Part shown: one piece after another, positions 19,304 through 48,818 of the stretch
Layout of the letters: the number at the start of each line of letters is the position of its first letter
How positions within the stretch are numbered: position 1 is the first letter of the stretch
Assembly: GCA_051362555.1 (NCBI GenBank)
Contig: CM120647.1
Span: 5,146,001 to 5,210,000 of the forward strand
Direction of reading: 5' to 3'
Origin: Lingula anatina
Taxonomy: Eukaryota > Animalia > Brachiopoda
Length of the DNA: 64,000 nt
Translations under genes and position numbers: made by a program
The notes under the pieces: model-generated
Database searches by the model: none
Seen by the model: the letters and a program-made list of their open reading frames with translations, nothing else
What the model was told of the DNA's origin: nothing

Positions 19304-19361
19304 ATGTGGTCACTGCAATTCTACATCATCGCATTGTTTCTGTTCGACAGTCCAGTAACCG
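19304..19361 (+). CDS. Exon 1: signal peptide MWSLQFYIIALFLFDSPVT(G)
   Basis: Hydrophobic core and phase-1 GTATGT donor. An in-frame upstream ATG (19250) and an acceptor at 19286 leave the 5' end uncertain. Confidence 0.78.
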
Positions 19362-19647
19362 GTATGTATACCCATGATTCATGGCAAACAAAGGAAAAAG
19401 AACTTTGATATAGCAAAGGTTATCTATGCCTCCTCCGAGACAATTTACCAAAACTATTTACTTCACCAACCACAAAAATTAATTTAAAAAATGTTGAGGA
19501 ATTATTGTTTGTTATTGTTATTATTGAGAATTGGCCAATTAATCTCGCTTTTTACACCACCAGTGAATAACATAGGGAAAGCATTTGCTTTGTAGGCATA
19601 GGTCTACTTATATTTACGTATATATATATATATATCTCAGGAATTAG

Positions 19648-19706
<59 letters not shown>

Positions 19707-22277
19707 CAGTATTCAACAAGCCAAAAGAATCATGTTTCGAGACTGCCAATTATCTAATGTTAGAAAAACTACATATTGGGTCCTCTGGTGACAGATATCC
19801 ACATTTGTACATTCAATTTGATTTTATAACACGCTTTCAATCACTCTAACGGTCTGTGTGTATTGTTTAATTAAAAAAATCAGAGCGTCATCCATGATTT
19901 TCCATTTCTATTACAAAATCAGCAAACGAAAAGTGAAAAGCTTGTCCATGGATTGTACAAATCTGTTATAAAAGTGTTCAAGATGATCGCCTGGAAAATA
20001 TTAACAGTTACTGTATACAGTACGACCCATCTCAACGTCAAGATTAGTTTGATATAACAACTTGCCAGTATGAAACAAGAAACTGCACAAATGAAAATAG
20101 ATGGTTGTGCACTATTTGTTTGGAATTCTGTTTTATATTTATGCTGTAAAATTACGTGATTTTAATTTACTCAATAATATCTAATGTTGTATAATAACTT
20201 TACATTATTCTTCTACCAGAGGGATTTTTCAATTAAAGAGACAGTTATTTTGTTTTCATTTTACTTATCTTTTCGCTTGAGTTAATGAGGAGACAAAAAT
20301 AGCTATACCATTCCAGGGTCGCACTTCAGATATGCCACAGTCAGCTGTAGGCCCGCTCTGGATAACGCTTTAGTTGGTAAGTTGGACGTTTTTGTTCTCA
20401 GGAATTAGTCAGTTGTTAATAAAACTCATTTTGGCCTGATGAATTGTGGGTTTCTTTAAACATGTAATGATCACTGAAGATACGATGGGCAAGCGTCTGT
20501 TCGTGGAGACAAAAACAATGTTACCTTTGCGCAGTGATGGCATTCCACATACGATGCAAATATAGTTTAAGAAATAATTTCCAAGGATATCCTACACATT
20601 CCTAATGGGGTTCTCATCTAGGGCTGGAGCCGATCGACCAATATGGATCCGGATCTGGTTTGCATATGAACAGCCTACTGTTGCATCGACTGTGCGTGGA
20701 GTAACATTGTCATAATGAAGCATCAATAAGTAGTCTTGGTTCCCAAAGATATTGTCAACAGATTTCCTTAAATCCCTTTCCAGTACTTGGATGCATGGGT
20801 CTGTGTTAAGGTTCCTGTTGACCACTGCCAGCTGGCCTACACCATAGTAGCCACAACACCCCATGCATGTTTTGCAATGTTGTTTTGTGTGTCCTGTCAA
20901 CCAGTAGCAGAAAATTGAAAATAAATTGCTTATCCGCTATTCTCTAAACCATTGCGTGTCCATACATTCTGACAACGCTTAAACTTCCCTCAGCTGGTAA
21001 AAGTATTATTGCCAAGTTATAAGTTGGTGTCTATGTCTCATTTTTGGTACACCATCCCATTCGACGTAGACAGTTCTAGAAATAAAATCGACTCTGCAAA
21101 TGTTGGTACTAATATCTTTATAACTAATCTGAGTCCTTTCCTTTGATTTAAGTGACCTGTTCTTGGAGATCTGCCTGGAGATTAGATTTTGGTCCTTGTG
21201 AAAAACCCTGTACGCAGGCTAATGTAGGAAACCTTTCAGTTACTTCTTCGAGTTTTGCTGATTGGCAGTGTTTCTCTGGTAAGTACAATTCACTGATGCT
21301 CATGGATCACTCACATGATTTTGACGTTGCCGAGTATAGTTTGGTCAAAGGAGAGTCCTAAGATTTGACGTCACAATAACACATTCGATAATTCTCCTTT
21401 ATCTTTAACTTTAGGCTGCGGTTTCTTTTTGAACATGGCTCCTCATCGGTATTATGTCACAGCCATAGATTCGACTGACGATTGGCAACAAGGGGAAAAT
21501 GAGTTCAGTTTCACTCTGCCACATTCTGGTGCATTTTCGTTTGGGTAGGTCTATTTCTGTTTGTCTTCCACCACCACCCAACCATAAAATGTTCAAAATG
21601 CCTTCATGCATGTACATCACTAATTGGTATACTAGTGTCTAGAGCAAACAGACAGAAGCGCACATACAACATTAATGGCAAGTTAAGTTGGTGAGTTAAA
21701 ATATTAGTGTGTCATCTATGTGAGTTTTTTTTTTTTTTTTTTTTTTTGATATTCTACAACAGGTGAAGTTGGTGACTAAAAATAAAAATGTGTCAACATT
21801 GTGCCTTTTTTGTAGGGATATTTCATTTTGTATCCTAAGGCATGTCCTCGAAGCCCTGTATCAGTAACATTTTCTTGATATTCATGACATCTTGACATCA
21901 TGATATTCAAATTGATGGTGATTATGCTGGTAGACATTATGCATTATTGCTTCAATATGGGCAAACCAAATGTTAAGATAACAGTGTGCCTTATACTAAA
22001 ATATATTGTATATAGGTAAAGCTAGATTGGTTGAAAGGGGATTTGTTGTGGGTTCTCAAATTTTTTTCTCGGCTGTTTCAAAACCATTATTACTTGATCC
22101 TGTAAGGTGACAAATCAAATAAATGGCTGTACAAAAATGTTTTACCTTTGTTGCCTTTAACCCACAAATTTCATAAGAATTGATCATAGTGCTTCTCTTA
22201 TTATAACGATTTATGTATGACAATGCTAGCAAATTGATCAAATATAGCATATTGTGGACATAAGGGAATTAAGGTTG

Positions 22278-22339
<62 letters not shown>

Positions 22340-22585
22340 ACCTGTTCAGAAAGTAGCCAAGGTTAGCGGTTGACGCAAAGTAATTAGTCACTAGGCTTAT
22401 GGAAAAGTGAGAGACCGTCTGGCGTTCATTTTCATTAGATCCACTTGTATAGTATATGGCACAGGCAAGGCCTACAGGTACTGTATGTCTGCAGTGTCCA
22501 AATATGCGAGATAGCATTCTCAGTCTGGTAGCATTTTATGTGCTATCACACCTTATATAACCCCACCCCGCCAGCAGCAAGTTTT

Positions 22586-22616
<31 letters not shown>

Positions 22617-25600
22617 TTTTTCAGAATAGGGTATGGGGAAGAAAACGCTTACTATATCAGAACCATAAAGATATATCAATGTATCATATATCGTTTTGAA
22701 CGCAAGGGATGAGGCATTAAATTTTATAAATCAAAGATGCGTGACAATAAGTCAGGGGTCATTCATAATGGATCAGAGGTCACAACAGTTTACATTTGGT
22801 TTTCTCAAAAATTAGAATCAAAAAAGTTTTTTAAAAAACATTGTTTAAATAAATATTTTTTGGTATTTGGTGAATGGTTTGGGACCATGCTCTAATATAA
22901 AGCTTATGAAGAAAATCTGGAACCTCAAGTATCTTATTTCAGAATATTATGCAATTATACGTGAACCCAACTGTCAAAATATCCCCTATTTGAAAGTGGG
23001 GGTAGGGAAAGAAAGTGGTTACTACATCAATATATAGAAATATATATCAATGGATTACATATAATAAAAGATGTAAGGGATAGGACAATCAATTCTGTTG
23101 GTCACAAATACATGACAATTAGTCAAGGGTCATTGACAATGGTGCAAATGTCAGAAGAGGTCATATGTCATGTATTTTTCATAAATTTGAGCCAACAACT
23201 GTTATCAAAATATTGCGTAAGAAATTAGAATTTGGTGAATGGATCATCAACACGTTATGGTGTTATGCTTTTGAATAAAACTACGAGCCTCAAGCATTTT
23301 TATTTTTTTTTGGGGGGGGGGAATGAGTTTACTCATGGAATGTGAAAATATTAGTCAAAATACGCCCTCTTGAATTTGGATTAGGGGAAAGAAACTGCTC
23401 ATAATTGAAAGACAGATGAAGATACAGCAACACAATTAATATTTCCTGCTTTTCGTTAGTATAGCGGAAAATCATTGCATTCACGTTTTGTGATGAAAAA
23501 GAAGGTACCTGGAGATGTTTGGGTGGATGACATAATGAGGTACAGTTATGAAAATATAGTGTATACTGCAAACTTCTATGCAGTTTTACGATATATCAAT
23601 AGGTTTCATAATTCAGACACCTGTAAACAGAGTCATGCCTCATTTGAAATAGGTCAAATTGTCAGCCAAGGTCAAATTTAAAGCTTTCTTGTGAATATGA
23701 ACCTTTTTCAGAATTTATTATTTATTTTATCATTTCTTTTATTTCTTTCTTTCTTTCTTTCTTTCCTTTTGTTTTTGCATATCAGTGGGGTCTTTCTGTA
23801 AAATGGAGTATTGGAGAAAGATAATCCTGTATCCTATATTGTAATTTGTAAGATTAAATACTGGTTATATTTTGCAAGTAAACCAATTACCCCTATCTTT
23901 TTTTTACATCTTTGTTACTACTTAATGTATAATTTTTGATTTATGGGTCAATAACACGAGGCTAGATATCACATTCAGTCACTCTTTTCCCCCAAAAGCC
24001 TATATTGTTTATTCTGATTCAGTAATCAAGGAAAAAGGGATTGTTCTTAACACTGACATGCAGGAACATAACTTTACTTAATTATTTTGTTGTACTTTTT
24101 ATTCTGTATCATTTTGACACTGTACATTGAAAATGACAAATATTCAATCTGCTTCAATATAATATCAGGAGGAGATAAAGGTAAAACAAATGCAGACCTG
24201 AAAAGTGCAACCGAGCTTTAGAGAAGAATTTTAACAAACATCTACTTTATAACATACATGCACCCTTATTGAAAAATGTTGTGACTGGAAACTATAGTTT
24301 TCATTTTCATTTTTAGTGACTGTGAACGGTTGTGTTTATAGAAAGTATTGTGTGATATGAAATAATTTATAAATATATTAATATTTAATAAAAAATATTT
24401 ATGTTTTTTTTTTTACATTTTCCAAATTCATGTTATTTCCAAAGGTTATATGGAAATTGGTGTACACGTAAATTAGATCAATTTAGTTAATATTCAAATT
24501 TATTTTATTTTTATGATAATTTACTTTCATAAGTCAATGTGGTGGACATAGGTAATTTTTAAGTTTAAAATATACACTGAAGGCTTAAATACCAGGCATT
24601 ATGATTGAATAAGAGTCTAAATATGGTTTGGGGTTCAAGAAGAGGTACAAAATAATAGGAAAGAAGGCACACCATTTGTCAGTAAGCATCCTGACCCATG
24701 ATATCCTGGATTTATCCATAGGACGATCAAGAAAACCTAGGACCTAATGACCCCCTGCACACACGCACACACACACGCTCATGTACACATACATGTTCTC
24801 ACTCAGTAGATTCAGCCCTTGTCCTTTACAAGAAGGCAGAAATGTGGCCCACGACCTAAAGATTGAGATAGGCTTCTTAACAAATATAACCACATCCTTT
24901 GACTTAAGACAAATTTGAATATTTTAATGTATTTTGTCATTTTTATCAGTTATTGGGTTGAACATTGGATACTATAAATAAGTGATATTGATACTTTAAT
25001 CTCTTCCATACTGAATTAAAATACATTCACTATTTCACTTTTTATACTGTAACCAATGTTTCGGTATTCTAAATCTGTCAATTAAGGTTTATATATAAGA
25101 AATGGAAAAATAATGTGGAAAACAATCTACTGGTGGCAGTAGAAGTTGTTGGTTGCATTCATGGTTATTTCCACCTTTCGTCCAAAACTCCTTGTGAAAC
25201 TACCTTACATACATTACTTCGGGTAACAGATACGTCGTCAGTGTTCAGTGACTAAGTTAATTAACATATACGCATGTGTCTTCTTACGGATAACGTCTTA
25301 ATCGCAATGTTGGCTTAAAAACTGAAAATCAGTTTGTTAAAATTTAACATTTAATGTCTATTTTGCCTGAGCACTCACAGTCACCATTTCAAAACCGATT
25401 TAATGACATCATTTAGTACTCCAAAAACCCAGCGATTTTTTTTTTCTTTAAAAAAGTATTAGTTAGTTTTAATCGATGATAAAGCAAATTAATGCCTTTG
25501 TTTAATGAAAATCTGTAATTAGGAGCTCATAAACCCATAATAAAACATTCAAACCAAAATGACGGCACGGGATTGTAGCCACACACTCTAGACAGCTCTG

Positions 25601-28600
25601 CCAATTTGGGTGATGAAATACTTTCTCAGGGATGCAGTCTCACTCCGTAACAATTGTTATCTTGCCTTTAAACACAAAGGTGTTAAATTGACGAGAGTTG
25701 CTTATGCTTATACATTGCAAAAAGGAATATAAACGCCGATATTTTATATTTTCGAGTTTCTAATTGTTTTAAATCAACACAAAGATAGATGCATTTTTGA
25801 ATAATAAGATGCAGGAAATCCTCCATTTCGGTATCTGGATGATAATAAAGAATTACAATAGACTCGCCCTTCAAGAAATCGACGCCTTCAAGAAATCGAC
25901 GAAAACCGGAAGTGCGTGTTTTTTGCACTGTTTTTCCTGTCATGCCCATCGTAAACAATGTGTTGTCAAGTAAAACGAAGCGTCTGATACAAAGTATCAA
26001 ACGCGGCATTCACGTGCTTGCTTGCGATGCGTTCAGTACACTTTGTTTACACTGACAAGTCGAGGTCAGGAATGCACAATGTTTTTCTATGTAATTACGC
26101 AGTTTCAATTTTGATTAGTGAATTTTCTTTTATCTGCATGGTCATTTTCCGAACATTTGTATGAGCCACGAAGTATTTCTCATCGGAAAATCACCCAGCA
26201 GCTTTCCAAGTAGAAGCGAGTGACGTCATGACGCACTTTCGGTTTTCGTCGAGCAATTGAAGGGATTAGCGTTACGGTTTGCTGCACATTTAAAGCGTTC
26301 TGTCTCAAAACGTACTCAACTGCTTGGATTGAAATTTACAGAACTTATTCTTCACATGATATCACACATATGTGCTTAATTTGAGAGCTTTAGCTGTTAT
26401 ATGTTTTCTACAGTGCCCATTCTAAATTGAAAAAGAGCTATTTTCCGTCGATTTCTTGAAGGGCAAGTCTACCCTTAAGAGACTAGTCTTTAAAATTTTC
26501 AATAAAATAAGATATAATTTGATATTTTATTTCAAATACACATTTACTACACAATGACTGGCATAATTTATAATTGATTTTAATTGCTATTTTCATATTA
26601 ATGTTTTTTTTTCTAATTTCTACATTTTGTTTTGATGAAAAAATATCCGTTGTGTAAAATGAATTAAAAAGCACCTTAAAGCGCTGGACATCAGGCCCCC
26701 GTTTCACAAAAAAACTTAAGTCGGTTTCCCTGACTTAGGGCTTGGTTACCAACGTAATTAGGTCGTTACGTCACTAAGTCCCGTTTCACAAAGAATCTAA
26801 AAGGTCGCTTACGTCGTTTTTTTTTTCTTAGCTGTAAGTCGACGATGTCAAGCCTCCTCGGGAGGAGACTTAAGTCGGCAAGCTCAACTAAAACTCGGTA
26901 AATGAGAGCATAAACAACAAAAATTTGGAAAGAACATACCTCCTTCAAGATATTGTGTTATAATATCCTTGAATAGCACTGACATTTATGGAATATTAAA
27001 ATAAAAAAAAATAAAATTCCACTTTACCCAGCCGATCGCGTGTTTGTTTATGTTTTTGACCGCTAGACGTCCCTCAGTAGTGTCCCACGACAAGCTAATG
27101 TTTAACTGTTACTTTGAAGTTGTATTGAAGTTAATCTAATCAATTAAGTTCGAAAACAAACTTTGTTTGTGTTTTGGTCGACTTTTATTGTTGATAAACG
27201 ATCGTTCTCGGCCGAAAGAGGCCATGAAACGTCATGTCTTGTGAAACTTTTGCAATTTTACACCTCCTTTTCTGGAAGAGTTTCTCGTGCGCGTCGACTA
27301 CGGTAAGCACGCCAAGCTAAGACGTTAGATTCTTTGTGAAACACTCCTAGTCGACTTCAGCTAAGTCGACCTAGCTAGGCCACCCAGTTCGAGCTAGTCG
27401 ACTACGGATTTAAGATTCTTTGTGAAACGGGGGCCAGATACTGTGTGATGTTGAGCAGCACAATGCTAATCATAAAGGGTGTTGTATTCAATCTGACATA
27501 TTTCAAAATTTGTTTTTTTGCTTTACAAAACCTTTTAGAACTAAAGCCAAATATATTTAGTAAATGAGAAGTATCACCTAAAAGTCATTAATTCACCTTA
27601 AAATTCACCAATAATGCTTAGATTTTAATTCTATAAAGTGAGCATGGTTGACCCTTGATTTACCAGTATTATCAGTGATCGACAAATGCATGGTAATATG
27701 TGCTCTATATAAATAGTAAAGGAATAGATGGATATATTTTAGATATTGTACATTGTACAATAATTATTTACCTGACTTCTTCCAAATTGTACGAGACTTA
27801 AGACTTCAGACTCTGTGAAGAAGGCTTCTCAAATCAAATAATAATTTTATAGCCTAAAAAATGTTCCTTTTAAAAGGTGCTAAAATTAATATTTATGAAA
27901 AAGTATATACACCCTAACGTTCAAGAGTGGCTGATATCTTCACATTCAATAAGTAAACATTTTTTTTCTAAAAAAGACGCTTGGGGCTCCGAACTTTGTT
28001 CAAAAGCATAACACTATTCAGTAGTAATAATAATTATATGTCCGTTGTACAACGTTTTAAAAACGTTTCAAATGTTTTAATCCCTATCCTGTGAATAGAA
28101 GGGGGCGGACAAACAATGGAGAGCCGTCCAAATCCCTTCAATATTTGAACGTAAAAACACAATAGTTTAGGCGTAATAACACGCAATACCTTAGGCGAGT
28201 GAGCCCCATGACACCGGTATCTGTGGTCCAGCGCGAGCGCAACAATCTGCTGTAACAAAGTGCAATTAACAGCAGGATACATCAGCCAGAAAGTCCCATT
28301 GTTTGTTGTGGCGAGAGGATTATAGCTGTAAGAGGCTTGAACCCATGCTACCGCGTGCCACAAACCGTCTTCCGTAGCGAACTGTCCTTTTGCTCACTAG
28401 TTTGGCACGCGCAGTTCATTATCTTTTTAGTGTTGCTAACAAACTGCTAATTAAATTTGTTATCAGGTATTTCATTCAATATGAATTTTTCCGTAGTCAA
28501 AAATTGAACTAAGTATTGTTTGTTTGATTAACATGCATGAGCGGCAGCATCAACCTCAAAAAATTTATCGCATTAATTTATAAATGAATAATTTATTTAC

Positions 28601-32948: not shown

Positions 32949-34238
32949 ATGTCAACACAAGTGGGCCTGATTTGGTATTAAAGTGCAATTTAAGACTAAA
33001 ACTAGTCTGAGGCTAGTTGGTCTGACTTACTTTAAAAGCGAAAAATCACGAAAACATTGTTTTAAGTGTGAAATTCTAATAATGGATCCCTACAGTATAA
33101 AAAGATTTTAAATGAAATTGAAACTGAATATTTTTATGGTAGATTGAAGTGACTTTTCGAATGTTTGTGGCAAATAAAAAGGCATATCTTGTTTTAAAAT
33201 AAATGTACCTTTTTTATTGCTTTTGAAGCTATATTTTAGGCTCCGATAAATGTGCGAGGGGAGATAACTGCTTTACCACTTCAGTTGAAGTCAGACGAGT
33301 TACAGTCTTACTCACTGGACTTTCAGTTTGTTTTTAGTCTTAAGATCAAATTAAGACACCTCACTTAAAGGGATAACAACTATTCGTATTAAATCTAAAT
33401 TTCACAATAAATACATATTTTTTAGAAAAAAAATAAATAAAATAAAAACAGGGACCAATTTTTAATGTAGAAATGGATTCATTAACCATTGGTAAATATG
33501 GGAAATTGCTGTATACCCCAGAAAAATTCATTTTTTGGGCAAAATGAACAGTTGTTATCCCTTATTTCTTTAAGATCGCCTCAGACTAGTTTTAGTCTTA
33601 AAATGCACTGTAAGACCAAATCAGACCCATTAGTGAAAGAGTACGGTTCATGGCCTAAATGATGCATATATTACTCGGTCGTTTTAAAGCATATTATTAA
33701 ATCAATTCAACGGGTACCCCTGTTGTATTTACGTATCTCATTATTCCACATTTTTAAACATCTCAGATTTGCCGAATGTTGCTGGGTACCACTGGAAACA
33801 GGATCTTTAAAAAGTATAAAAGTTACAACTAAATATAATGCTGGTATCCGAAACGACACGGGAAAACCAAATGCAAGCCCTGTAACCACAAGTAACCCCT
33901 TGGTTAGGTAAGTACTTGGTGGCGCAAAACGTGTTTAATGCAAGTAAATTTTCACGGAACACCATATTACTTTAATCACAGATGAATAAGATTAGTGCAA
34001 AAAAAGTTAATATAATTAGCTAGGGAGCTCGCTAATAACGCATTGATCCACTATAATTAAAATGGTTCTTGTCATTATTTTTATTATCAATAGCATGGAT
34101 ATCACATGTGGCTATCAATTTGACATCCCGAGTGTTGATGCAGATGGGGATATTGTAAGATGTCGCTGGGCAATTGGATATGCTGAGTGCGGCAACGTGT
34201 GTGGGCCACTTCCGGGGTCAACTTTGTATCCAGTACGT

Positions 34239-38500: not shown

Positions 38501-38537
38501 GATAGACAGGTTGAGGTGACTGTGACTTTGTTATACA

Positions 38538-38627
<90 letters not shown>

Positions 38628-41600
38628 CTTACATTTAAATTATTCAGTATCTTTTAGTGGATGGTCACTTCAGATAAATCTAGATGATATATTTGAGCAT
38701 GTGGTACGGGTTCCACATTTTTGTAACAGACTCAATGAAACTCATATTGGAATTTATTTTACAACCTTATATTACCTTTTTTATTATCTTCCGTCACCAA
38801 ATTAGCACCAGAGAATTACTTTTGAACCCCCAGAATAGTACCATTTTACCTAATACAAGCGTATGAGGGTCCCACAATTCAAAGATTATAAATTACACCA
38901 AATTATTAAAATAGCGGCATGCAACCAATAATTGTTTTTTATCAAAATAATGGCTAACAATTTTCCTCATGCGGTCAAAGATGTATTATTTTGCTTTAAT
39001 TCAGCCATATTGTTTGCTGACACTTGTTTTATAGATCGAGCAAAATCCTTAAAATATGTTAAAGCACATAGTTTTGTACTAATTAGACTACTAATTGTAC
39101 ATACAAACTGCAAGCCCATGTGACGACTGAATCCTGTATTTATTTGGAGGCTTATAAAAGTTTCTATTTACATTTTATGAAACCGAAAATGTATTCTGCA
39201 CCAGGGAACTATCAAAAATGGTGTATGGCTCGCTTTGAAGGTGTGATAGTTTCAAAATGGTGAATGCTTCTCAATTTCAAAATGGGGATGAGGGCCATCT
39301 TGGATTTGAGGAATACATTTTATGAGACTGATAATGTATTCTGCACCAGAAAATATAAAACAACGTATAACTCATTTACAAAGATGTAATACATATACTA
39401 TCAAAATAGCGAATTATGCCTAATTTCAAAATGGTTTTTGGCGGATATCTTGGATTTGAGGGACAAAACGGCCACCTATGGCTTCCATAACGGTAAAAAA
39501 TAGGTTTTTTGCTGATAATTTAGTCCAATATCGATAGTATATAACAAAAAATTGCATTGAAATATATTTGAATACGGGTTTTCGATATCCATGGTTTTGC
39601 AGCGTTCACATATATCTTGGTAGGCACTTAAAACACCCTCTTTTTCCCTTCAAATCACCTACTATCAAAAAAACAATATAAAAATGACTTTTGCACCCCC
39701 AAAATAGTAGGAATCAATATATATATTAAGTATATATAGACCAAACGCTTCAAAATTCAACATAAAATAGAAAACTTATGTCCACTTTCAAATGGTGAGT
39801 GGTGGCCATCTTGGATTTGAAGCACAAAATGGCCACCGATTGCTTCCAAATTATCAAAAAATATGTTCCTTGTCTCTAATTTAGTCAGGTTTGATAATCC
39901 ATACATGTTTCTAGGCCAAAAATTAATGGATATATGAAATATTATATATTTGGCACCTAATTTGCATAATTTTCGCTAATTAATACATCGATAGAGCGTG
40001 TCTCAAAAATTTTTTGGCCCAAGGAACATTTATGCCAAGTTAGACATTTGTACTATAAAATGCAGCGTTTGACCCCTTAACAAGCCTACTATGTGAAAGA
40101 GAAATACGTGCACGTTCCTTAAAGGACGCTAATATCAGCGTCTCAATTCCGCAACGGTCAGTGCACCACCATATGGTATAGAAACTTGCTAAGAGCAGTC
40201 TCGCTATGACAATAGGCCTTGGAAAACGCTTTTTTTGGTGATAATTTGCTCCTTGTTCAGAAGGGAATTGATTGTTTTTGCAATGGGTCATGTTCCCCGG
40301 TGTTAAGTTCTGGATGTCTTTGGCGTGGCGTCTGTTCAGGTTCACCAACCTGTTTTGTACAATGTTGGCGCAGAACAACAATACTGTAACACAGTTTACG
40401 CAGCCTAATATCCGCCTCTTGTATACATAATTCTAAATCCCTCTTTGAAATTAATGCCAACATATTGAAAGTGTTTTGATCGAATCATATTCTACCATGC
40501 TCATACCTGGACCAGCCCAAATAGTACTACCCAATGATATCGCAGTACGTTACTTAATTTAACAGTGTTTCAGACAAGGTAAACGGTTTATTGTTACTGA
40601 CACACTTGAATACACATTATTCTAATCACACGAAATTAGCCCACACAAAATACACGTTTTTAAAATAAACGACTTATCTTACCTGGACATACCTTTAAAA
40701 CTAAAATATTCCATTTTAAATGTCAAGTCTGTAATTACGTTTTTAATATAACAAAACAACTTGCTTTGTCTGTGAGTTATTATCAATAGAAATATTTTAC
40801 ATCCCACAGTGCAAAACTAACATATTGGACTCAACGCTTTGGTGGGTAAAATATCAGTTGATTTATTTCAGAACTGTACCCTTATCATCCCGTCTTCTAA
40901 GCGAAGCCTTTACGGTAGTGGGTTTTATGCAGTAGCAATAATGTTGGAAGATTTCCCTGCAACAGACATAACACAGGGTGGAGTGCAGAAAGACGAAACA
41001 ACTCCATTGTCAAAGGTCCCGCTACAGGTCAGGAATATTAAATAAGTATTTAAATAAAAAAAATGAAAACATTGGCGATCGAAAAAAGGACGGTATGGTT
41101 AACTCTATCATTGTTGCCGACCCCATGGCATTATTATTTAAATAGCACTGTTATGATAGTAACACAGCGCGTAGCCAGATCGCTGTTATGCACACACGCT
41201 GCTTCCCTGTAGTTTTTTGTCCATAATTTTCCACCAATATGAACCTGCCTTTTGTTTCCACACGTGGCAGCACGCGTCGCTTACACGTGTCCGTTTGTAG
41301 GACAGATCGGCGAAAAGTCGCATTTTAAAAGGCCCTTTATGAACTATATCACTTGCTTAATATCGCTACGTATTCAGAAAATGACTTTGCTTTTTGCTGT
41401 CACAGGCATACATGACAGGTTTTTTATTTATTTATTGATTGATTGATCGATTTTTGAATTGACGATTATGTTTCTGAATTTCTCATTTGTCATAAATTGG
41501 GGTTTTATAATGTGTGAAATAACTTGGTATATTTCAGTATCTTGCTCGCATAAAGGATGGTTGTAATTGCGACAACCCGCCCACTTTCACAACTCCTCCA

Positions 41601-44600
41601 GAGACAAAAAACCTACGTGCTGGGCAGACCTTCACGAAAGACTTAATAGCATTTTATCCCAGTGGGTATGTTTGCACTTGTAAGCACTTCCTTGTTCAGC
41701 ATACAACAGGCAACAACATAAAATGCCATGTAGTTAAGACTTCAGTTGACAACGGAATCTGCGTATCGACATGACAGCACATAATCCACACCCATACATA
41801 TATTATATTCATAACGTCCACTTCTTTCCACACATACAGAATAACTGCCATCAACGTCATTCCACCAACCGGTGCTAATGTGGGTGCAATGGTTACTGTA
41901 AATGGTACCACGGCCTCGGTTAACATTACCTGGACTCCGGCCCCTGCACAGCACGGACACCACCTGATTTGTTATCAAGCCTTTGGCGCTAATAGGTAAG
42001 TTCAGACTCATCTAAGACCCTGTTCCCATCCCCAGGTCGACGTAGCAGGATTGACCAAACTCTGTCACGTTACAGTTTAAATTATGTTCAGTCAAAAATT
42101 ACAATAGGGTGATAGCACCTGCACATGATAGCTGGCAATGGTCTGTAATGGCTCTTACCGAATTAATGCCCGAGCCTTAACACTGAGATGGTCAAGTACT
42201 AAATACTCTTCCCTGTTTCCTGAGAATACTCGTGAATGAATGCGCAGCCGCTTCCTGCTCTGAAACTGACGTTGAATCAAGATGCGCAGTGACGGAGCTC
42301 CAATTCAGGAAACCCCTCTAAGGGTTATTGAATAAAGGGGATGATTGTGATAAAACTGCAATACAATATTGGTCACCTCTTACAAATGGAGTGAGATATT
42401 TGTTGAGAACGTTTCAGTGAATTGCCCCAATAACGTTCTTTTCCGTAAAGAACAAAGGTTGTCCCACCTTCGGTATCATGTGCTTTTATTTATAAATGAT
42501 CACATCACAGGTGAAGATTGCTATAAATAGTGATTTTCATTCCAGATGCCATAACTAACATGATAAGTCAGACAGAAAATACAAACTAGCCGTGAAGATA
42601 TCAATATTTATTCACATTTATAACATGTACCCCCTCAAATCCGACGTTTCACTGTGATTTTCACAGGGGTAAAGAAATGTCTATTAAATTGAAATGACAC
42701 CACCAAATGGCACCAAATTTACAAACATTTTGCATTAGGGTGTGCTCGTTAAAAACTCCTAGTCTAATTGTGTTTGTGTTTACCGCGTACTGTAATTATC
42801 TTCTCTAGGTGGCGGGGCTCGCCTTCCACAAGGGTAACAATTCTGTGTGATTAGATATTGTCCGATTCTTCCTAAAGACCTTGGGGGAGTTGGTCCAGAT
42901 TATTAGGAGTTTGGTTCTCCTTTACATTGCACATTTCAATTCATGTCACAGATGTTTAGTAAGGTTAATAACAGGGCTCAAAGGTGGTTGCTCTATCCTC
43001 TGAACATTGGGTTTCAGCAACAAATCCCTCAGCAGACGATGACGCCTGCAGTATCCTTGAAGTCACATCTTACAAATGGAGTGAGATATTTGTTGAGGAC
43101 GTTTCAGTGAATTGCCCCAACAACGTTCTTTTCCGTAAAGAACAATGCACTCAAACCGTGGGCTTGCAATTCTCTCCAAACGTGTCACTTCGGCAATATT
43201 ATCCTTCACAAACCTTCCAAAATGCATTCTGCAACATGCCTACGGGCCCTTATTTGACCATTTAAGGCATACAACAACTTGTTCCTAGTGATGGTTGACC
43301 AAGTTCTGGTAGTACTGGGGTCACTGAACCTAACATTCTCAAATGATACCTCATTCCTTCTGCAAGAGGGGACTTCGGGGGTGATCCAGGTTTGATTATG
43401 ACAGCACACTTGCTCACAGTTATCATGTGGTGAGTGATTCGTTGCAGAATCTCAATGTTCTGAGGCTGGATCCTGATAATAAACCTACTGGCATGAATTG
43501 AAATGTGCAATCCGGAGGAGAACCAAACTCTGAATAGTCCGGACTAATTCCGCCAAGCTTTTTAGGAAACATGGGGCATTATCTTACAAAACAGAATTGT
43601 TACCCCTGTTGAAGGCAGTGGCACCGTCTACAAGACATAAATACAGTGCGCAGTGGCCACACATGATAATAGACACGTGACCTTTAACTAGCACACCCTA
43701 ATGATAAATGTGTTTAAATTTGGTGACTCTTAGTAGTGTCATTTCAATGTAATGGGCATTTCTTTATCTCCGTGGAAATGACAGTTGGAGCTGAGGAGGT
43801 ACATGCGATAAATGTGAATAAATGATATAAAATGTGGACATCTTAACTGCTAGTTTGTATTTTCTGTACCAATAATCATGTTAGTTACGGTATCTGGAAT
43901 GAAAATCACCATTCATAGCAATTAACTCCTGTGATATGATCATTTATAAATAAAAGCACATGAAACTGGGGATGGGACAGCCTTTTTGACCTATGTTGTA
44001 TATACTGAAAAACAAAATCACATAAGATGAAAACATATTGCCATAAATTGACGTTTGGCTGTTCAAAACATTAATTGTCTCGTCTGCTGATCTTACTGTA
44101 TATTCATGAGAAAGAGAAGGAACATTAGAAACAATTAAAATTCGAATCAGCAGCACATTATATTATATTATATTATATTATATTATATTATATTATATTA
44201 TATTATATTATATTATATTATATTATATTATATTATATTTACAGATGTCCTGGACCGTACCTTTGTGACAAAATTGTAGTAGGTAATGTATAATATTTCG
44301 ATGTTGGTGGTTGCAACCTTGGAACTTGGGAACCATTGCTAGAATCATGCTTGCACTTGAACGGGATGTCTTGTTTCATTTTATTTTATAACGGAGCTCT
44401 AAATGAATCGTGAATCATTAAGACTGCCATGTTTACAAACATATTAGAGTGGAATATCCAAAGCATTTTGCACGTTTTTGTGAAGTTTTATCTTCTTAAA
44501 TGTCTTCAAATATGGAAAGAAGTAATACAAAAAAAATTGAAATACATTGATTGTAAAGGAGTGGTGCACTTACTAAGCAGTAATGCAGATACCCATCTGT

Positions 44601-46266
44601 TATGGAATATTCTAAAACAATGTTGTATGCTGTTTTCTGTAAAATCAATGTTCCGTCAAATTAATTGGGTCACGGCCCTGGCCTCTTAAATATAGAGAAG
44701 ATGACATTTCGTTACACTTATTATACATTGACCTTGGCATTGACCCCTTTGACCTTGAAAGACGTTGCAAAGGATTCCCACTCAGCTCTGGTGACATTGA
44801 AAGCTGTTGTAAATGATTGGTAGTGCCTCATTTAGTAGAATTGTTCTTGGTATATTTGGTTACCAAGATATGTAAAGTTAGGTGACCCACCCCATTCTAA
44901 GGTGGCCGTTTTGAATTTTTTCGCCAAAAAATGTAACTGCCATGGGAGAATATTTGTGGATTTTTTTTTTTTTCTTTGGCTTCATTGGGCCGTGTCTTTG
45001 TTTAAATGTTCATAGAGCATTCCCTAATGTGCCAACTCACAGACGTGCATTGATATTTAGGTTGTTTTATTTGTTGTCTGTGAACGGTCATTCTGTGTCG
45101 GAGAGTGTCTCCGGTTTACCCTATATAGTTCTCACCGCATCCACTGCAAGTCAATACATAAATTAAATTTGAGCTAGTGCAGGTGAATGGGTGTTTAATT
45201 CTAAATGTAAGTCCCTTTTTAAATGTTAGGTGGCTCCCCTCTTTAATTAGTGGACAGGTGCTGCACCTGGATACCTCACATTTCTGTACTCGTATTGTTG
45301 AGGTTTCCAAATTTGGAATTGTTTTCAAATTTTGCTTTGGTTAAAATTTGCTTAAGTGATGGACTTTGTCTCTTACTCTTTATAATCTGCATTTCAGTTA
45401 GTAACATATTCATTTTGTCATTCAAATGGACTTGCATTTAGAATTAAACACTTAAGTGACCGGGTGTCGTGGATCTCACTCGCCATGTGCTTCTTTCATA
45501 CTCGTCCATTACCACATCATCCACCAAGCGGTAGCCACGGTCAAGACGCGACCAATCGACAGCCATGTGTTGGATATAACATTGAATCGCTACACATCTT
45601 ATTCATTACACATTGATCTCTTACACTTAGTTTGCTTGACAAAATTAATGATTTATCTAACTGTTTAATATGCAAGTATTGCTTACAATGTTGTCCCTTC
45701 AAAAGTGGAATAAAATATAAAATTAAACGTTCACAGACTCTTCAGTTGACGGCGGATTGTGCCCGTACAGCAATTGGAGTGCTTGCTCGGTAACGTGTGA
45801 AAATGGTACACAGACACGTTCTGAGGAGTGCAGGTGCCCTGAACCCGCCTACGGTGGCGCCGACTGTGTAGGTGCCAAAACCGAGACTCAGTCTTGTAGT
45901 GGCCCCCCTTGCCCAGGTAACGACCCCCCTCTCTCCCTCTCTCTCTTCTCTCTCTCTCTCTCCCTCTCTCTCTCTTCCCCCTCTCTCTCTGAAATCGCAG
46001 TTAAAACAGACATTTCATTGACCAAACCTAAAAAACAATATTTTATTATGAACCTTTATTGCCTTCCAGTTGACGGCGGATGGTGCACGTACAGTGAATG
46101 GAGTGATTGCTCAGTGACATGTGAAAACGGCACCCAGACACGCTCTAGGGAGTGTCAATGTCCTGAACCCGCTCACGGTGGCGCCACCTGTGTGGGTGCA
46201 TCAACCGAGACTCAGTCTTGTAGTGGCCCCCCTTGCCCAGGTATCAACCCCCCTTTCTCCCTCTCT

Positions 46267-46306
<40 letters not shown>

Positions 46307-48818
46307 CTCTTTCTCTCTCGGAAATCGCAGTTAAAACAGACATTTCATTGACCAAACCAAAAAACAACATTCCATTATGTACTTATATTGCCCTCCAGTT
46401 GACGGTGGATGGTGCACGTACAGCGATTGGAGTGATTGCTCAGTGACTTGTGAAAACGGCACCCAGAGACGCTCTAGGGAGTGCCAATGTCCTGAACCCG
46501 CTCACGGTGGCGCCACCTGTGTGGGTGCGACAACCGAGACACAGTCTTGTAGTGGCCCCTGTTGCCCAGGTAAATATATACATCTCTCTCTCTCTCTCTT
46601 TCTGAAATGCTTTATAGACATAGCCTAAACCATGTACCCCACAAGACCGCACACCTCAATATAGTCATGTCAGGCGACGTGTGATGCAAGAGACCAGGTT
46701 GTTACTTCCCAACAATGTGCATGACGTAAACAATTCATATATATTTAGGTGTGAATATTACAACATGTGAAGTTTCGACGCAGGGCCCGTTTGGTTTTTA
46801 TCCATATCACCCCCAAAAGAATCTACTCATTTGTTCTTTGGTCCATATGTGGCCTATCCTGAAAATATCATCAAGGTTCGTCCAAAAAGTTTTGCGTTAT
46901 GTTTCGAACAAACAAACTTACGTCATCATAAACAAGTGATAAGCCAATATTCGGAACATATCAATAGGAACATTATATCCTTTTGAGGGCGGCGATGACA
47001 TTTTAATACTTATGTTCCAGTTGATGGTTATTTGAGTAATTGGTTACCGTGGTCTTCTTGTTCTGCTACCTGTGGACTGCCAGGAACAGTGACTCGGTCA
47101 CGTACCAAGGAGTGTATATATCCCGACCCAGATTGTCCTGGTGATGACTGTGGCCAACTTCCGGAAGAATATGAAAACTGCACCCAAAAGCCGTGTTGTA
47201 CAACAAGTGGTGGATCACCGGGTTCATTCCAACACGACAGAGGTTAGTATCCTATTGTAACCTTCGGATATAGCATGACAAAAATAGTTTTTGTCTGATA
47301 ACGGATTCTGTTGCAGGCCCATATACACAATATACCTGCACACAGTAGATTCACAACCCCGTATTTTTTCTGTTATTACAGTTTGCAGTAAAGTTGGACA
47401 GTATTTAACTCAATTACAGGATTGATACAAACAAGCGTATTACTTAAATCTAGCTTTACATATCATAATTTCTTTTTGCTATATAAGGTGTAAAGCTGAA
47501 TGTGCTGGCATGTTCTATATTAAAACCGAACATGTGGCATGATTTTAAGATGATCCTTTTTTTTTTTTCAAAACAACTTGTATTCACAATGTGACTTTCA
47601 TTGTTATTTCTAGGAAATAGGCTTCATAATATTAGCGTGAATTTCCAGGGAGCTAACACAAATGACAAGTATGTCACCTTTAGATGTGGGATTGTGCTGA
47701 TTGAAAGTATCCAAAACTATGGTAAGCCGATACTATTTTCCTATATAATGGATTTCCTATTATGGTATAAAATAAAACAAAGTACTGTATACAGACTTGA
47801 AACAAAATGAAAAATATTATATTAGGATTGGTTTAGTTCCTTACTTGCTAGCACTCAGAGGGCAGACCTCCGCCAAAGTACGTCCACTGCACGAGCTAAG
47901 AAACCTCTCTTTCTCTCTCTTTAAAACTGAAACCATATGAAATGGAATCAGCAATATATAGTGGAATCAATGGCAAAATGCCTCTGTTATCTAAATTTAA
48001 ACCAAATCTCACATTGAAAACAAAATAAATAAACTATTAAAAATGATAAAAATCACTATTTTGATGTGCACGTACTACTTGTATTTCTGCTTAAATATCA
48101 GGAAGCTGCCCAAATCCAAAATACATAAAAACTAAAAAGAGGGTGTCACAAGGATCATTATTGATATCCCGATTAAAAGAAGACAAGAATAATATATCAA
48201 TCAAATCAATAAATAGACTGAACTAACAAACTTTTAAAGGTATAGAAGTGACTTAATAGATACTGGGCACAACAATTTTAAGCATAACAGTAGAATTAAA
48301 GTATGGAGTTATGTTGGAAATATTTATTTGCTGTTTGGTAATTATAAAGACACTAATAAAGTGCCCAATATGGACTTCGACTGAAATATCAAATTGTCAT
48401 AACTTTGGAAATAAAGACCCCAAATACATGGATATCTTTTTTCATTACATTGCATATAAAAACCAACATGAATCCTACGTAGGTACTCATCATATTATAC
48501 AGTTTTTTAAATAACGTATATTTTTGACATGTTATTAAATTTTATTTCATCATATTTTTTTTTTTTTTTTGCATTTAAAGATACATATCCACAATGCATT
48601 CCTTACCCTAAAAAAGGACCATGCGGAAGATATTGTTTTATTTATGTTTTTCTAATGGAAACATTCCAGATGAGACCTATGTTGCTGCAGTGCAGGCTGC
48701 CGTGACCGACGTATGTACCGACCAATCACGTCCGGTTTGTCACGTGACAATCCCTGCCCCTTCCGGCTGCCCCTGCCAAGTAATGATAAACTACATGTGT
48801 TGCAATGAATTGTATTAA
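19304..48818 (+). CDS. Copy B, complete 16-exon gene for a 707-aa secreted protein: signal peptide, Sib/integrin-beta-like ectodomain, 4 TSP1 repeats, Cys-rich C-terminal domain
   Basis: join(19304-19361,20317-20376,21153-21278,21415-21544,33767-33907,34094-34232,40872-41027,41538-41665,41840-41995,44245-44282,45746-45916,46070-46240,46399-46569,47021-47242,47614-47721,48670-48818). All introns are GT-AG, phases match at every junction, total 2124 nt, no internal stop. Confidence 0.88.
20317..20376 (+). CDS. Exon 2: GSHFRYATVSCRPALDNALV
   Basis: ttccag/gtaagt boundaries, phase 1-1. SHFR is the mature N-terminal motif of this family. Confidence 0.85.
20500..21100 (-). mobile_element. Degenerate Tc1 transposase in intron 2
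   Basis: MGCCGYYGVGQLAVVNRNLN...VLERDL...HYDNVTP...DENPIRNV aligns to Tc1 WGC..G.G.L / QDNA / PDLNPIEN motifs. Confidence 0.7.
21153..21278 (+). CDS. Exon 3: VTCSWRSAWRLDFGPCEKPCTQANVGNLSVTSSSFADWQCFS
   Basis: aag/gtaagt boundaries, phase 1-1. Confidence 0.82.
21415..21544 (+). CDS. Exon 4: GCGFFLNMAPHRYYVTAIDSTDDWQQGENEFSFTLPHSGAFSFG
   Basis: ctttag/gtaggt boundaries. Phase 1-2 bridges exons 3 and 5. DW..GE motif. Confidence 0.85.
25290..25860 (+). repeat. Dispersed repeat with a second copy at ~35930-36490
   Basis: Colinear similarity (aaaccgatttaatgacatcatttag...gcttatacattgcaaa...catttcggtatctggatg). Confidence 0.8.
25861..26469. mobile_element. MITE with gactYgcccttcaagaaatcgacg TIRs, TA-flanked
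   Basis: TIRs at 25861-25885 and 26446-26469. The left TIR core is tandemly duplicated. Confidence 0.8.
26695..27434. mobile_element. PIF/Harbinger-like MITE
   Basis: TIRs gcccccgtttcacaaa / tttgtgaaacgggggc, flanked by CAG on both sides (3-bp TSD), with subterminal cttaagtc/gtcgac repeats. Confidence 0.85.
29490..29645 (-). mobile_element. Possible SINE remnant
   Basis: (TAA)n tail-like tract plus ctctctggggagcatacagc, which recalls invertebrate SINE central domains. No tRNA head seen. Confidence 0.3.
31692..32199. mobile_element. MITE-like element; its right end recurs at ~13775-13910
   Basis: cactcaaacccaatattgcggtgca pairs with tgcaccattatattgggtttgggtg. 32065-32199 matches 13775-13910. 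Confidence 0.55.
32962..33629. mobile_element. MITE with ~50-bp TIRs carrying a nested ~195-bp MITE (33369-33562)
   Basis: Outer TIRs tgggcctgatttggtattaaagtgca...ctagtctgaggc and its reverse complement at 33578-33629. Inner TIRs agggataacaact / agttgttatccct follow a TTAA. Confidence 0.8.
33767..33907 (+). CDS. Exon 5: FAECCWVPLETGSLKSIKVTTKYNAGIRNDTGKPNASPVTTSNPLV
   Basis: ctcag/gtaagt boundaries, phase 2-2. CCW and R.DTG..N.SPVT motifs. Confidence 0.9.
34094..34232 (+). CDS. Exon 6: SMDITCGYQFDIPSVDADGDIVRCRWAIGYAECGNVCGPLPGSTLYP
   Basis: tag/gtacgt boundaries, phase 2-0. D.DGD.VRCRWA motif. Confidence 0.9.
36641..40091. mobile_element. 3.45-kb non-autonomous DNA transposon with ~650-bp TIRs in intron 6 (TAG...CTA termini, tentatively Academ-like)
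   Basis: Arms 36641-~37330 and ~39460-40091 are highly similar reverse complements (caaacgctgcattttatagtacaaatgtctaacttggcataaatgttccttgggccaaaa). The superfamily guess rests on the termini only. Confidence 0.85.
37642..38057. mobile_element. CCCAG-terminated MITE-like insert with AACGTTG subrepeats; a second end starts at 38062
   Basis: cccagcggggca ... tgcctggg with repeated caacgttg motifs. Confidence 0.5.
40872..41027 (+). CDS. Exon 7: NCTLIIPSSKRSLYGSGFYAVAIMLEDFPATDITQGGVQKDETTPLSKVPLQ
   Basis: tttcag/gtcagg boundaries, phase 0-0. YAVA..LEDF and PLS.VPLQ motifs. Confidence 0.9.
41538..41665 (+). CDS. Exon 8: YLARIKDGCNCDNPPTFTTPPETKNLRAGQTFTKDLIAFYPSG
   Basis: tttcag/gtatgt boundaries, phase 0-2. 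Confidence 0.85.
41840..41995 (+). CDS. Exon 9: ITAINVIPPTGANVGAMVTVNGTTASVNITWTPAPAQHGHHLICYQAFGANR
   Basis: tacag/gtaagt boundaries, phase 2-2. ITWTP...G....C beta-sandwich-like motif. Confidence 0.87.
42364..43998. mobile_element. TA-flanked Tc1/mariner-type element with long (~500-bp) diverged TIRs in intron 9; related end at ~13000-13195
   Basis: ta|caatattggtca..aaaggttgtcccacc pairs with gggacagcctttttgacctatgttg|ta. Arms ~42364-42920 and ~43510-43998. Confidence 0.75.
44156..44238. repeat. (TATTA)n microsatellite abutting the exon 10 acceptor
   Basis: Direct reading. Confidence 0.95.
44245..44282 (+). CDS. Exon 10 (38 nt): CPGPYLCDKIVV
   Basis: tttacag/gtaatg boundaries. Phase 2-1 exactly bridges exon 9 and the first TSP1 exon. 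Confidence 0.78.
45110..45440 (-). mobile_element. Penelope-like element GIY-YIG fragment in intron 10
   Basis: KCEVSRCSTCPLI...FTCTSSNLIYVLTCSGCGENYIG is the Cys-rich linker plus GIY-YIG start typical of PLEs. Confidence 0.85.
45746..45916 (+). CDS. Exon 11: TSP1 repeat 1
   Basis: 171 nt, phase 1-1. VDGGLCPYSNWSACSVTCENGTQTRSEECRCPEPAYGGADCVGAKTETQSCSGPPCP. Confidence 0.92.
46070..46240 (+). CDS. Exon 12: TSP1 repeat 2
   Basis: 171 nt, phase 1-1. VDGGWCTYSEWSDCSVTCENGTQTRSRECQCPEPAHGGATCVGASTETQSCSGPPCP. Confidence 0.92.
46399..46569 (+). CDS. Exon 13: TSP1 repeat 3
   Basis: 171 nt, phase 1-1, nearly identical to exon 12, ends GPCCP. Confidence 0.92.
47021..47242 (+). CDS. Exon 14: TSP1 repeat 4 plus linker
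   Basis: 222 nt, phase 1-1. Paralogous to 155-376. Confidence 0.92.
47614..47721 (+). CDS. Exon 15: GNRLHNISVNFQGANTNDKYVTFRCGIVLIESIQNY
   Basis: ttctag/gtaagc boundaries, phase 1-1. Differs from its paralog 749-847 by a frame-preserving 9-nt indel. Confidence 0.85.
48670..48818 (+). CDS. Exon 16: DETYVAAVQAAVTDVCTDQSRPVCHVTIPAPSGCPCQVMINYMCCNELY*
   Basis: ttccag acceptor. Most codon differences from 1807-1955 are synonymous. Confidence 0.88.

What the first reader, a model, noticed from the sequence alone, without database searches (positions are those of the whole stretch)
19304..48818. Hidden 16-exon gene for a secreted Sib/integrin-beta-like + 4xTSP1 + lectin-like mosaic protein
Seen: sixteen exons join in phase into a 707-aa ORF with a signal peptide and no transmembrane or GPI-like tail. 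Recalled: the motif series SHFR, DW..GE, CCW, R.DTG..N.SPVT, D.DGD.VRCRWA, YAVA..LEDF, VPLQ and ITWTP marks a poorly characterised family annotated as integrin-beta-like. It is similar to Dictyostelium Sib adhesion proteins (HFRFG start) and to some bacterial surface proteins. Inference: this copy has no VWA domain or anchor and instead carries a TSP1 stalk and a terminal Cys-rich head. That suggests a soluble two-ended adhesin, opsonin or mucus/glue component. This is the best candidate in the window for an undescribed system.
Basis: partly seen in the sequence, partly recalled or inferred. Interest (0 to 1): 0.8.

Follow-up and report, generated by a model that had tools for sequence, protein, structure and literature searches.

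The report
Brachiopod secreted Sib-like adhesion protein
This is a spliced gene of the lamp shell Lingula for a likely secreted protein that joins four thrombospondin repeats to a three-domain head related to the tip of amoeba Sib adhesion proteins; it likely acts as a soluble linker in matrix or mucus, a new arrangement of known parts whose claimed lectin end is unproven.

Summary
The gene is real. Sixteen GT-AG exons give a 707-aa ORF with no membrane anchor. RNA reads show 6 of 15 coding junctions plus a 17th, non-coding exon; the reads are mostly 85-95% alike, so they come from alleles or paralogues. It is not hidden: RefSeq LOC106180466 of Lingula anatina is a truncated 490-aa version, 97% identical over 476 aa. 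Residues 21-377 fold as three Ig-like sandwiches. Relatives hit Pfam's three N-terminal Sib domains in order, so the Sib link holds for the head only: no VWA, transmembrane helix or NPxY, and nothing of integrin beta. The head opens 93 of 94 relatives (rotifers, bivalves, Lingula) on changing stalks (Ser/Thr+TM, EGF, adhesion GPCR); only the Lingula protein has TSP1. The 'lectin' tail scored no better than shuffles against SUEL domains and lacks both lectin motifs. Best reading: a Lingula-made, exon-shuffled, secreted adhesion/recognition linker; ligand unknown. New variant of known parts; interest 0.38.

The parts
19304..19361 (+). Exon 1 (coding part): signal peptide, aa 1-19; an acceptor lies just upstream, so a 5' UTR exon is likely
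   Evidence: identical in RefSeq P0001/P0002; helix 2-13 in model
20317..20376 (+). Exon 2: predicted mature N-terminus with conserved His22, start of Ig-like domain 1
21153..21278 (+). Exon 3: domain 1
21415..21544 (+). Exon 4: domain 1 (DW..GE motif)
33767..33907 (+). Exon 5: end of domain 1, start of domain 2 (CCW; R.DTG..N.SP)
34094..34232 (+). Exon 6: domain 2 with the conserved D-x-D-x-D loop (D187, D189, D191)
   Evidence: junction 6-7 in reads
40872..41027 (+). Exon 7: domain 2 (D245, VPLQ)
   Evidence: junctions 6-7, 7-8 in reads
41538..41665 (+). Exon 8: domain 2/3 border
   Evidence: junctions 7-8, 8-9 in reads
41840..41995 (+). Exon 9: Ig-like domain 3; weak hit to Pfam Ig_SIBA-E_3rd (E 0.022, under cut-off)
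44245..44282 (+). Exon 10: 38-nt exon, last strand of domain 3, ends in phase 1
   Evidence: present in RefSeq P0001; not shown by reads
45746..45916 (+). Exon 11: TSP1 repeat 1 (phase 1-1)
46070..46240 (+). Exon 12: TSP1 repeat 2
46399..46569 (+). Exon 13: TSP1 repeat 3 (9 Cys)
47021..47242 (+). Exon 14: divergent TSP1 repeat 4 plus Gly/Ser linker
47614..47721 (+). Exon 15: first half of the C-terminal domain (no family hit)
48670..48821 (+). Exon 16: Cys-rich end, stop at 48816-48818, donor 3 nt after the stop
49056..49300 (+).
   Evidence: spliced reads 48821 to 49056
155..1958 (+). 3' end of an upstream tandem paralogue (copies of exons 14-16 at 155-376, 749-847, 1807-1958), frames open

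Best explanation
It is a spliced Lingula gene for a likely secreted, disulfide-rich protein that likely works as a soluble adhesion or recognition linker in extracellular matrix or mucus: a predicted three-Ig-domain head, related to the tip of Dictyostelium Sib adhesins, would bind a surface, and four TSP1 repeats plus a Cys-rich end would hold it in matrix in place of the membrane anchor that many relatives have. Shown: exon chain, partial splicing, TSP1 repeats, no anchor, the head's family and its place at the N-terminus, the Lingula-only TSP1 fusion. Predicted: fold, signal cleavage between G20 and S21. Inferred: binding by the head (possibly cation-dependent through D187/D189/D191/D245 and His22), spacer/tether role of TSP1, disulfide cross-linking through the odd cysteines (9 in TSP1-3, 7 in the end domain), origin by phase-1 exon shuffling inside the Lingula lineage followed by tandem duplication.
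For: Head: AlphaFold2 pLDDT mostly above 90 for aa 21-378, all beta; domain 3 matches Ig/cadherin-like adhesion domains (best Z 10.7, rmsd 2.1, 89 aligned; SraP Z 10.1); domain 1 of paralogue P0002 is a loose Ig/FN3-like sandwich (best Z 5.9). Pfam Sib domains hit relatives in order: SIBA-E_N 8 of 79, Ig_SIBA-E_2nd 13 of 79 (E up to 0.1), P0225 above cut-off (31.8 vs 28.1 bits), exon 9 Ig_SIBA-E_3rd E 0.022. The head begins within the first 65 aa in 93 of 94 relatives and 47 of 94 have a TM segment behind it; stalks are Ser/Thr-rich, EGF, GAIN-7TM or bacterial-Ig/PKD, ZP in an echinoderm cluster (TM 0.88): the pattern of a ligand-facing tip carried on exchangeable stalks. Sib proteins are the proposed main adhesion receptors of Dictyostelium (PMC9197732, passages). 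Four Lingula proteins form a 100/100 clade holding both TSP1 and EGF tails; exons 11-15 are all phase 1-1; exons 11-13 are a 329-bp tandem array. Against the upstream copy, changed codons are 7 synonymous to 5 non-synonymous in exon 14 and 5 to 3 in exon 16 (2:5 and 0:7 in the other frames), and exon 15 has one in-frame 9-nt indel.
Against: No ligand, tissue or localisation data. The Lingula protein itself hits no Sib profile as a whole; the link is through relatives. The ligand of Sib itself is unknown (PMC10983970, passages), and which Sib domain binds is not shown in what I read. The junctions that tie head to stalk (9-10-11) and 13-14 were not listed in reads; reads are mostly 85-95% alike to the window. 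This copy departs from family consensus at G25 (94% G, here Y), W142 (95% W, here I) and C293 (85% C, here T). TSP1 repeats 1-3 lack the WxxW motif tied to glycosaminoglycan binding (PMC5446238, passages). An Ig-like fold shows no function.
Confidence: 0.45

Rival explanations
1. A soluble pattern-recognition protein or opsonin built like rhamnospondin: TSP1 stalk with a C-terminal, degenerate SUEL/rhamnose-binding lectin domain, plus a Sib-type head, bridging microbes to phagocytes or mucus.
For: Rhamnospondin is a secreted 726-aa protein with 8 TSRs and a C-terminal RBL domain (PMC3269628, passages). Of 5 TSP1-rich proteins checked, 4 hit SUEL_Lectin, 3 of these at the C-terminus. The tail's later cysteines line up by eye with the second half of SUEL (alignment); one pairwise score was reached by 51 of 2000 shuffles. 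Tandem duplication and tail swapping fit immune families. A sea cucumber gene named 'Integrin beta-like protein A' rises about 3.5 log2 beside complement C3 (PMC6429463, table passage; family membership known by name only).
Against: Five-domain SUEL profile: 0.5 bits, reached by 1115 of 1999 full and 857 of 1998 Cys-fixed shuffles; hhalign probability 0.2%; second pairwise test 1429 of 2000. No YGR or DPC..KY motif and 7, not 8, cysteines. No Pfam hit for exon 15 or 16 at E up to 1. No challenge data.
Confidence: 0.25
2. The 707-aa chain is partly an assembly of separate or variable transcripts, or this copy is a weakly expressed, drifting duplicate while sister copies supply the reads.
Against: 16 exons stay open and in phase with strong donors; RefSeq independently joins exon 10 to a TSP1 exon; no stop or alternative last exon was found after exon 10 or 13; synonymous bias against the paralogue.
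Confidence: 0.13
3. A secreted signalling ligand or decoy: a soluble form of a head that other genes display on receptors (single-pass EGF proteins, an adhesion GPCR), competing for or presenting their ligand.
For: The head stands in front of GAIN-GPS-7TM in Mytilus P0212 and of EGF+TM in bivalves.
Against: None of the 4 other Lingula proteins found has a TM segment behind the head (P0245 differs little from P0003); the aGPCR case is 1 of 94 and may be a fused gene model.
Confidence: 0.1

Closest known systems
Dictyostelium SibA-E (Pfam SIBA-E_N PF24907, Ig_SIBA-E_2nd PF24908, Ig_SIBA-E_3rd PF24910)
   Same: Signal peptide followed by the same three Ig-like domains in the same order, shown through relatives.
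   Different: Sib is a type I membrane protein with VWA, Gly-rich TM helix and cytosolic NPxY motifs that bind talin (PMC9197732, passages); this protein has none of these and ends in TSP1 x4 and a Cys-rich tail.
Invertebrate proteins auto-named 'integrin beta-like protein A/C' (Holothuria P0005, Mercenaria P0219, Ruditapes P0225) and unnamed rotifer proteins
   Same: Same 355-aa head, about 25-39% identity; P0219 and P0225 are in the sister group of the Lingula clade (99/95).
   Different: Their tails are Ser/Thr stalks, EGF arrays, Ig/PKD repeats or 7TM, half with a TM segment; 0 of the 93 others has TSP1.
RefSeq LOC106180466 / XP_013419907.1 (Lingula anatina)
   Same: 460 of 476 aa identical; same exons 1-10 joined to TSP1.
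   Different: 490 aa, two TSP1 repeats and a frame-shifted end; lacks exons 14-16. Called 'uncharacterized'.
Rhamnospondin (Hydractinia)
   Same: Secreted, about 720 aa, TSP1 array followed by a small C-terminal Cys-rich domain (PMC3269628, passages).
   Different: It has a Ser-rich N-terminus, 8 TSRs and a true RBL domain; here a folded three-domain head, 4 TSRs and a tail without RBL motifs.
Bacteroidota T9SS-secreted surface proteins (CHU_C PF13585, Por_Secre_tail PF18962 clusters)
   Same: Predicted structures align over about 270-293 residues of the head, TM 0.60-0.64 by query.
   Different: Model-to-model match only; a motif scan of prokaryote genomes found 133 pattern matches, none confirmed.

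Membership tests
Sib (SibA-E) | N-terminal Ig-like domains, direct hit on this protein | tested here: inconclusive
   P0001 whole: no Sib profile at E up to 5; exon 9 alone Ig_SIBA-E_3rd E 0.022, 15.5 bits vs cut-off 27
Sib (SibA-E) | N-terminal Ig-like domains, homology through relatives | tested here: met
   8 of 79 and 13 of 79 aligned relatives hit domains 1 and 2 in order; P0225 passes the SIBA-E_N cut-off
Sib (SibA-E) | Extracellular VWA domain | tested here: not met
   No VWA hit on 13 exons or P0001; all-beta head, TSP1 and an 85-aa tail account for the chain
Sib (SibA-E) | Gly-rich TM helix and cytosolic NPxY | tested here: not met
   Highest hydropathy outside the signal 1.08; stop confirmed in the spliced last coding exon
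Integrin beta | beta-I/VWA domain with MIDAS, Cys-rich stalk, TM, NPxY tail (features as listed in bioRxiv 2020.04.29.069435) | tested here: not met
   No integrin Pfam hit; no TM
TSP1-repeat (TSR) superfamily | TSP_1 domain above Pfam cut-off | tested here: met
   4 of 4 exons, 29-49 bits vs 21.6
TSP1-repeat (TSR) superfamily | WxxWxxW and CSVTCG motifs | tested here: inconclusive
   WxxW only in repeat 4; WxxC and C-x-x-S/T-C in all four; repeats 1-3 carry an extra Cys pair
SUEL / rhamnose-binding lectin domain | YGR and DPCxxTxKY motifs | tested here: not met
   Neither motif in exons 15-16 (motifs from PMC3269628)
SUEL / rhamnose-binding lectin domain | Eight cysteines, 1-3, 2-8, 4-7, 5-6 | tested here: not met
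   7 Cys; by eye no counterparts of Cys 1, 3 and probably 4 (alignment)
SUEL / rhamnose-binding lectin domain | Remote profile similarity | tested here: inconclusive
   Profile of only 5 domains; score at shuffle level; one pairwise P about 0.03, one 0.71
SUEL / rhamnose-binding lectin domain | SUEL fold and sugar binding | not testable with these tools
   The domain spans two exons and no stored protein holds it, so it was not folded
Rhamnospondin | Ser-rich N-terminus + 8 TSR + C-terminal RBL | tested here: not met
   Folded Ig-like head, 4 TSR, RBL motifs absent

The most novel reading that the evidence does not exclude
The Sib tip is an ancient, mobile, cation-dependent ligand-binding module shared by amoebae, many invertebrates and Bacteroidota surface proteins, with a conserved His at position 2 of the mature chain (97% of aligned relatives) and an invariant acidic cluster as its binding site; animals mount it on mucin stalks, EGF arrays, ZP domains and an adhesion GPCR, and Lingula has freed it as a soluble two-ended opsonin with a stripped-down lectin fold. 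That would be an overlooked class of invertebrate recognition domain and would point to the unknown ligand-binding part of Sib.
Probability: 0.2. Interest if true: 0.68.

Novelty: new variant of a known kind. Interest (0 to 1): 0.38.

Why it matters
The gene itself is one more lineage-specific mosaic extracellular protein. The wider point is the head: a preprint reported no Sib proteins outside Dictyostelia (bioRxiv 2020.04.29.069435, passages) and Sib's ligand is unknown (PMC10983970, passages), yet its three N-terminal domains recur as a whole, always at the tip, in rotifers, molluscs, a brachiopod and echinoderms. A naturally soluble, compact version is a handy reagent to find what this module binds. 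It also warns that the database name 'integrin beta-like protein A/C' on these animal proteins does not mean integrin. Databases already hint at the link (NCBI names, Pfam hits), which limits the surprise.

Tried and rejected
Lectin tail: Pfam on exons 15 and 16 (0 families); PDB sequence searches (only Ariadne IBR E 0.3-0.5 and lactaldehyde reductase E 0.2, judged chance); own SUEL profiles, not significant. A SEA-domain idea for exon 15 came from recall and got no Pfam hit. Alternative longer exon 16 from 48581 and other frames: rejected, reads use 48670 and the synonymous bias favours the chosen frame. Solved relatives of the head by sequence: 0; Foldseek gave only generic multi-Ig matches with TM under 0.2 by query or nothing at E 0.001; absence of a family from these lists excludes nothing. 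The representative-library search with the whole RefSeq protein was swamped by TSP1 (148 of 150 rows), so the head's range rests and is incomplete (only the 7994 best candidates scored; no cnidarian, sponge-named or Dictyostelium sequence was retrieved, and no Sib sequence is in the tree). Prokaryote genome scan: 133 pattern matches, 0 confirmed. NCBIfam: nothing near a cut-off for 7 proteins. Homodimer prediction of the head: no verdict, score 0.00, no evidence either way. No indexed RNA holder was listed; runs were added by species label. Literature: searches listed no study of this module in animals or of this gene (0 papers with Lingula plus the gene id; 41 papers, 25 listed, titles nearly all on vertebrate topics); the one supplement held for the 2026 lophotrochozoan shell proteomics paper (PMC13425148) had 0 hits for these accessions, but it may use other ids, so a shell role is untested; PMC12686525 gave no passage for my terms. 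The two primary Sib papers (Cornillon 2006, 2008) were not held. Earlier scan notes: nothing.

Full report
1. Observation. 12 of 16 donors match GTAAGT at 5-6 letters against 93 of 1691 background GT sites. There is no hydrophobic segment beyond the signal region. Four exons are TSP1 domains above Pfam's cut-off; the other nine scanned gave one weak hit, exon 9 to Ig_SIBA-E_3rd (exons 1, 2 and 10 are too short to scan).

2. Organism and annotation. Exon 6 is 100% identical to RefSeq LOC106180466 of Lingula anatina. That 490-aa model matches 460 of 476 aa, with the same junctions through exon 10 into a TSP1 exon, then ends in another frame. So the gene is known as 'uncharacterized' and truncated; exons 14-16 are what the window adds. 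Other Lingula copies are P0002, P0003/P0245 (EGF tail, mis-named Notch) and P0004.

3. Expression. Seven of nine listed RNA runs were laid on 33.5-49.6 kb and 40.8-49.3 kb. Junctions seen: 6-7 (loose ends, 20 and 17 reads, matching the end of exon 6 at 19 of 20 letters), 7-8, 8-9 (15 reads), 12-13 (up to 28 reads in a run), 14-15, 15-16, and 48821 to 49056, a 17th non-coding exon. Stranded runs put the RNA on the + strand. That is 6 of 15 coding junctions. Almost all reads are under 99% alike, most 85-95%, so they show the exon plan of the family or of other populations, not this allele.

4. Duplication. Window 100-2955 repeats 46968-49802 at 82-87%, and 3.6-9.7 kb repeats 56.7-61.4 kb: a tandem segmental duplication with the 3' end of a sister gene at the window start. 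Between the copies exon 14 shows 7 synonymous and 5 non-synonymous codon changes, exon 16 shows 5 and 3 (other frames 2:5, 0:7), exon 15 one 9-nt indel, while introns carry 7-26 indels. This supports the coding frame of the tail.

5. The head, aa 21-377. AlphaFold2 on a 79-sequence alignment gave block pLDDT of 85-98 over aa 21-380, all beta (the TSP1 part had no alignment support and is unreliable). Domain 3 (about 280-378) matches Ig and cadherin-like domains (Z 10.7, rmsd 2.1, 89 aligned; 119 chains at Z 8 or more, so generic). Domain 1, folded in paralogue P0002, is a loose sandwich with best Z 5.9. Domain 2 was not searched alone. A profile search found 94 relatives, mostly bdelloid rotifers, also bivalves and unnamed metagenome proteins; a sea cucumber member came. 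Pfam's Sib domains hit them in order: SIBA-E_N in 8 of 79, Ig_SIBA-E_2nd in 13 of 79, one above cut-off. With exon 9's hit this makes the head the homologue of Sib's first three Ig-like domains, by transitive evidence; the Lingula protein alone does not reach these profiles. The Atlas model aligns with echinoderm ZP, mollusc EGF and rotifer clusters (TM 0.80-0.88) and with Bacteroidota T9SS cargo (TM 0.60-0.64). Conserved columns over 111 aligned stretches include H22 (97%), D187/D189/D191 (99/96/99%), D245 (100%), N160, P163 and eight cysteines at 96-100%. In 71 of 94 proteins with the N-terminal motif, the residues two and four before the His are mostly small and Val/Ile, which fits signal cleavage leaving His at position 2 (the -1/-3 rule is recalled). 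That the acidic loop binds calcium is an inference from recalled DxDxD loops.

6. Architecture. The head starts within the first 65 aa in 93 of 94 relatives; 47 of 94 have a TM segment behind it (many others are contig-cut); only the Lingula protein has TSP1, and 0 of 148 TSP1-rich representatives hold the head. In a 38-row tree the four Lingula proteins form a 100/100 clade on a long branch, sister to two venerid 'integrin beta-like' proteins and one long unnamed row (99/95) (38 of the 96 head-bearing proteins, chosen by hand to thin rotifers; midpoint root). TSP1 and EGF tails both sit inside that clade, at the same phase-1 border, which points to exon shuffling in the Lingula lineage (inference). 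Exons 11-13 are a 329-bp tandem array, 83-94% alike.

7. The tail, aa 623-707. It is real and conserved but has no family hit. Its later cysteines resemble the second half of a SUEL lectin by eye, and TSP1 arrays ending in SUEL exist. But a five-domain SUEL profile scored it at 0.5 bits, reached by 1115 of 1999 shuffles; pairwise tests gave 51 and 1429 of 2000; both lectin motifs are missing and there are 7 cysteines, not 8. 'Lectin-like' is unproven; a degenerate SUEL fold is not excluded because the two-exon domain could not be folded.

8. How it most likely works. A module that always stands at the tip of secreted or membrane proteins, on stalks that change freely, and that is related to the tip of an amoeba adhesion receptor, most likely binds something outside the cell. 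Here the membrane anchor is replaced by TSP1 rods and a Cys-rich end with unpaired cysteines, so the protein would be a soluble linker held in matrix or mucus (0.45). An opsonin of rhamnospondin type (0.25), a chimeric or drifting copy (0.13) and a decoy or ligand for head-bearing receptors (0.10) remain; the rest is unassigned.

9. Against what is known. It works like a Sib tip on a TSR stalk but is not a Sib (no VWA, TM, NPxY), not an integrin and not a rhamnospondin. Papers seen as passages only: PMC9197732, PMC3279395, PMC10983970, bioRxiv 2020.04.29.069435, PMC5446238, PMC3269628, PMC6429463; PMC12686525 gave no passage; one supplement of PMC13425148 was searched. Nine searches listed no study of the animal module; subscription papers and preprint supplements were out of reach.

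10. Verdict. Observation confirmed, interpretation partly supported. A new combination of described domains in one lineage, largely present in RefSeq, with an untested function: new variant of a known kind, interest 0.38. The under-noticed spread of the Sib tip across invertebrates is the part worth following.

Noticed in passing
window 100-2955 vs 46968-49802; 3623-9697 vs 56704-61448: Tandem segmental duplication with a period of about 47-52 kb; the flank after the gene repeats the flank after the upstream copy, so a third copy may start beyond the window end.
   Followed up: partly
window 53858-56717, - strand: Gypsy-type LTR retrotransposon in several frames: DUF7041, RNase H and integrase Pfam hits, with repeated ends near 54216-54605 and 56704-56913. 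Described only.
   Followed up: partly
window 15015-15428 (+) and 4656-5036 (+): DDE_3 transposase fragment and a retroelement aspartyl-protease fragment.
   Followed up: partly
window 41755-41999: In runs X2 and X3, 7 reads join 41999 back to 41755 with three letters between, covering exon 9 with intron flanks: a local tandem duplication or circular form in those animals. Unexplained.
   Followed up: no
window 46236 to 46066: 10 reads join a TSP1 exon end to the exon 12 start, so expressed copies may carry another number of TSP1 repeats.
   Followed up: no
protein P0212 (Mytilus edulis): The Sib-type head stands in front of GAIN-GPS-7TM, an adhesion GPCR with this module as ectodomain; could be a fused gene model.
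   Followed up: no
proteins P0211, P0227, P0228, P0247 (unnamed assemblies): Long proteins (up to 2327 aa) with the head followed by bacterial-type Ig, PKD, HYR and EGF domains, many copies per contig set; source not identified.
   Followed up: no
protein P0003 / P0245 (Lingula): Named 'neurogenic locus Notch protein' in RefSeq but holds only the head, one EGF and a twice-repeated Cys-rich unit with no Pfam hit.
   Followed up: no
window 45320-45604: A repeat inside intron 10 is covered by - strand reads in the stranded runs (depth 11-15), probably from other loci.
   Followed up: no
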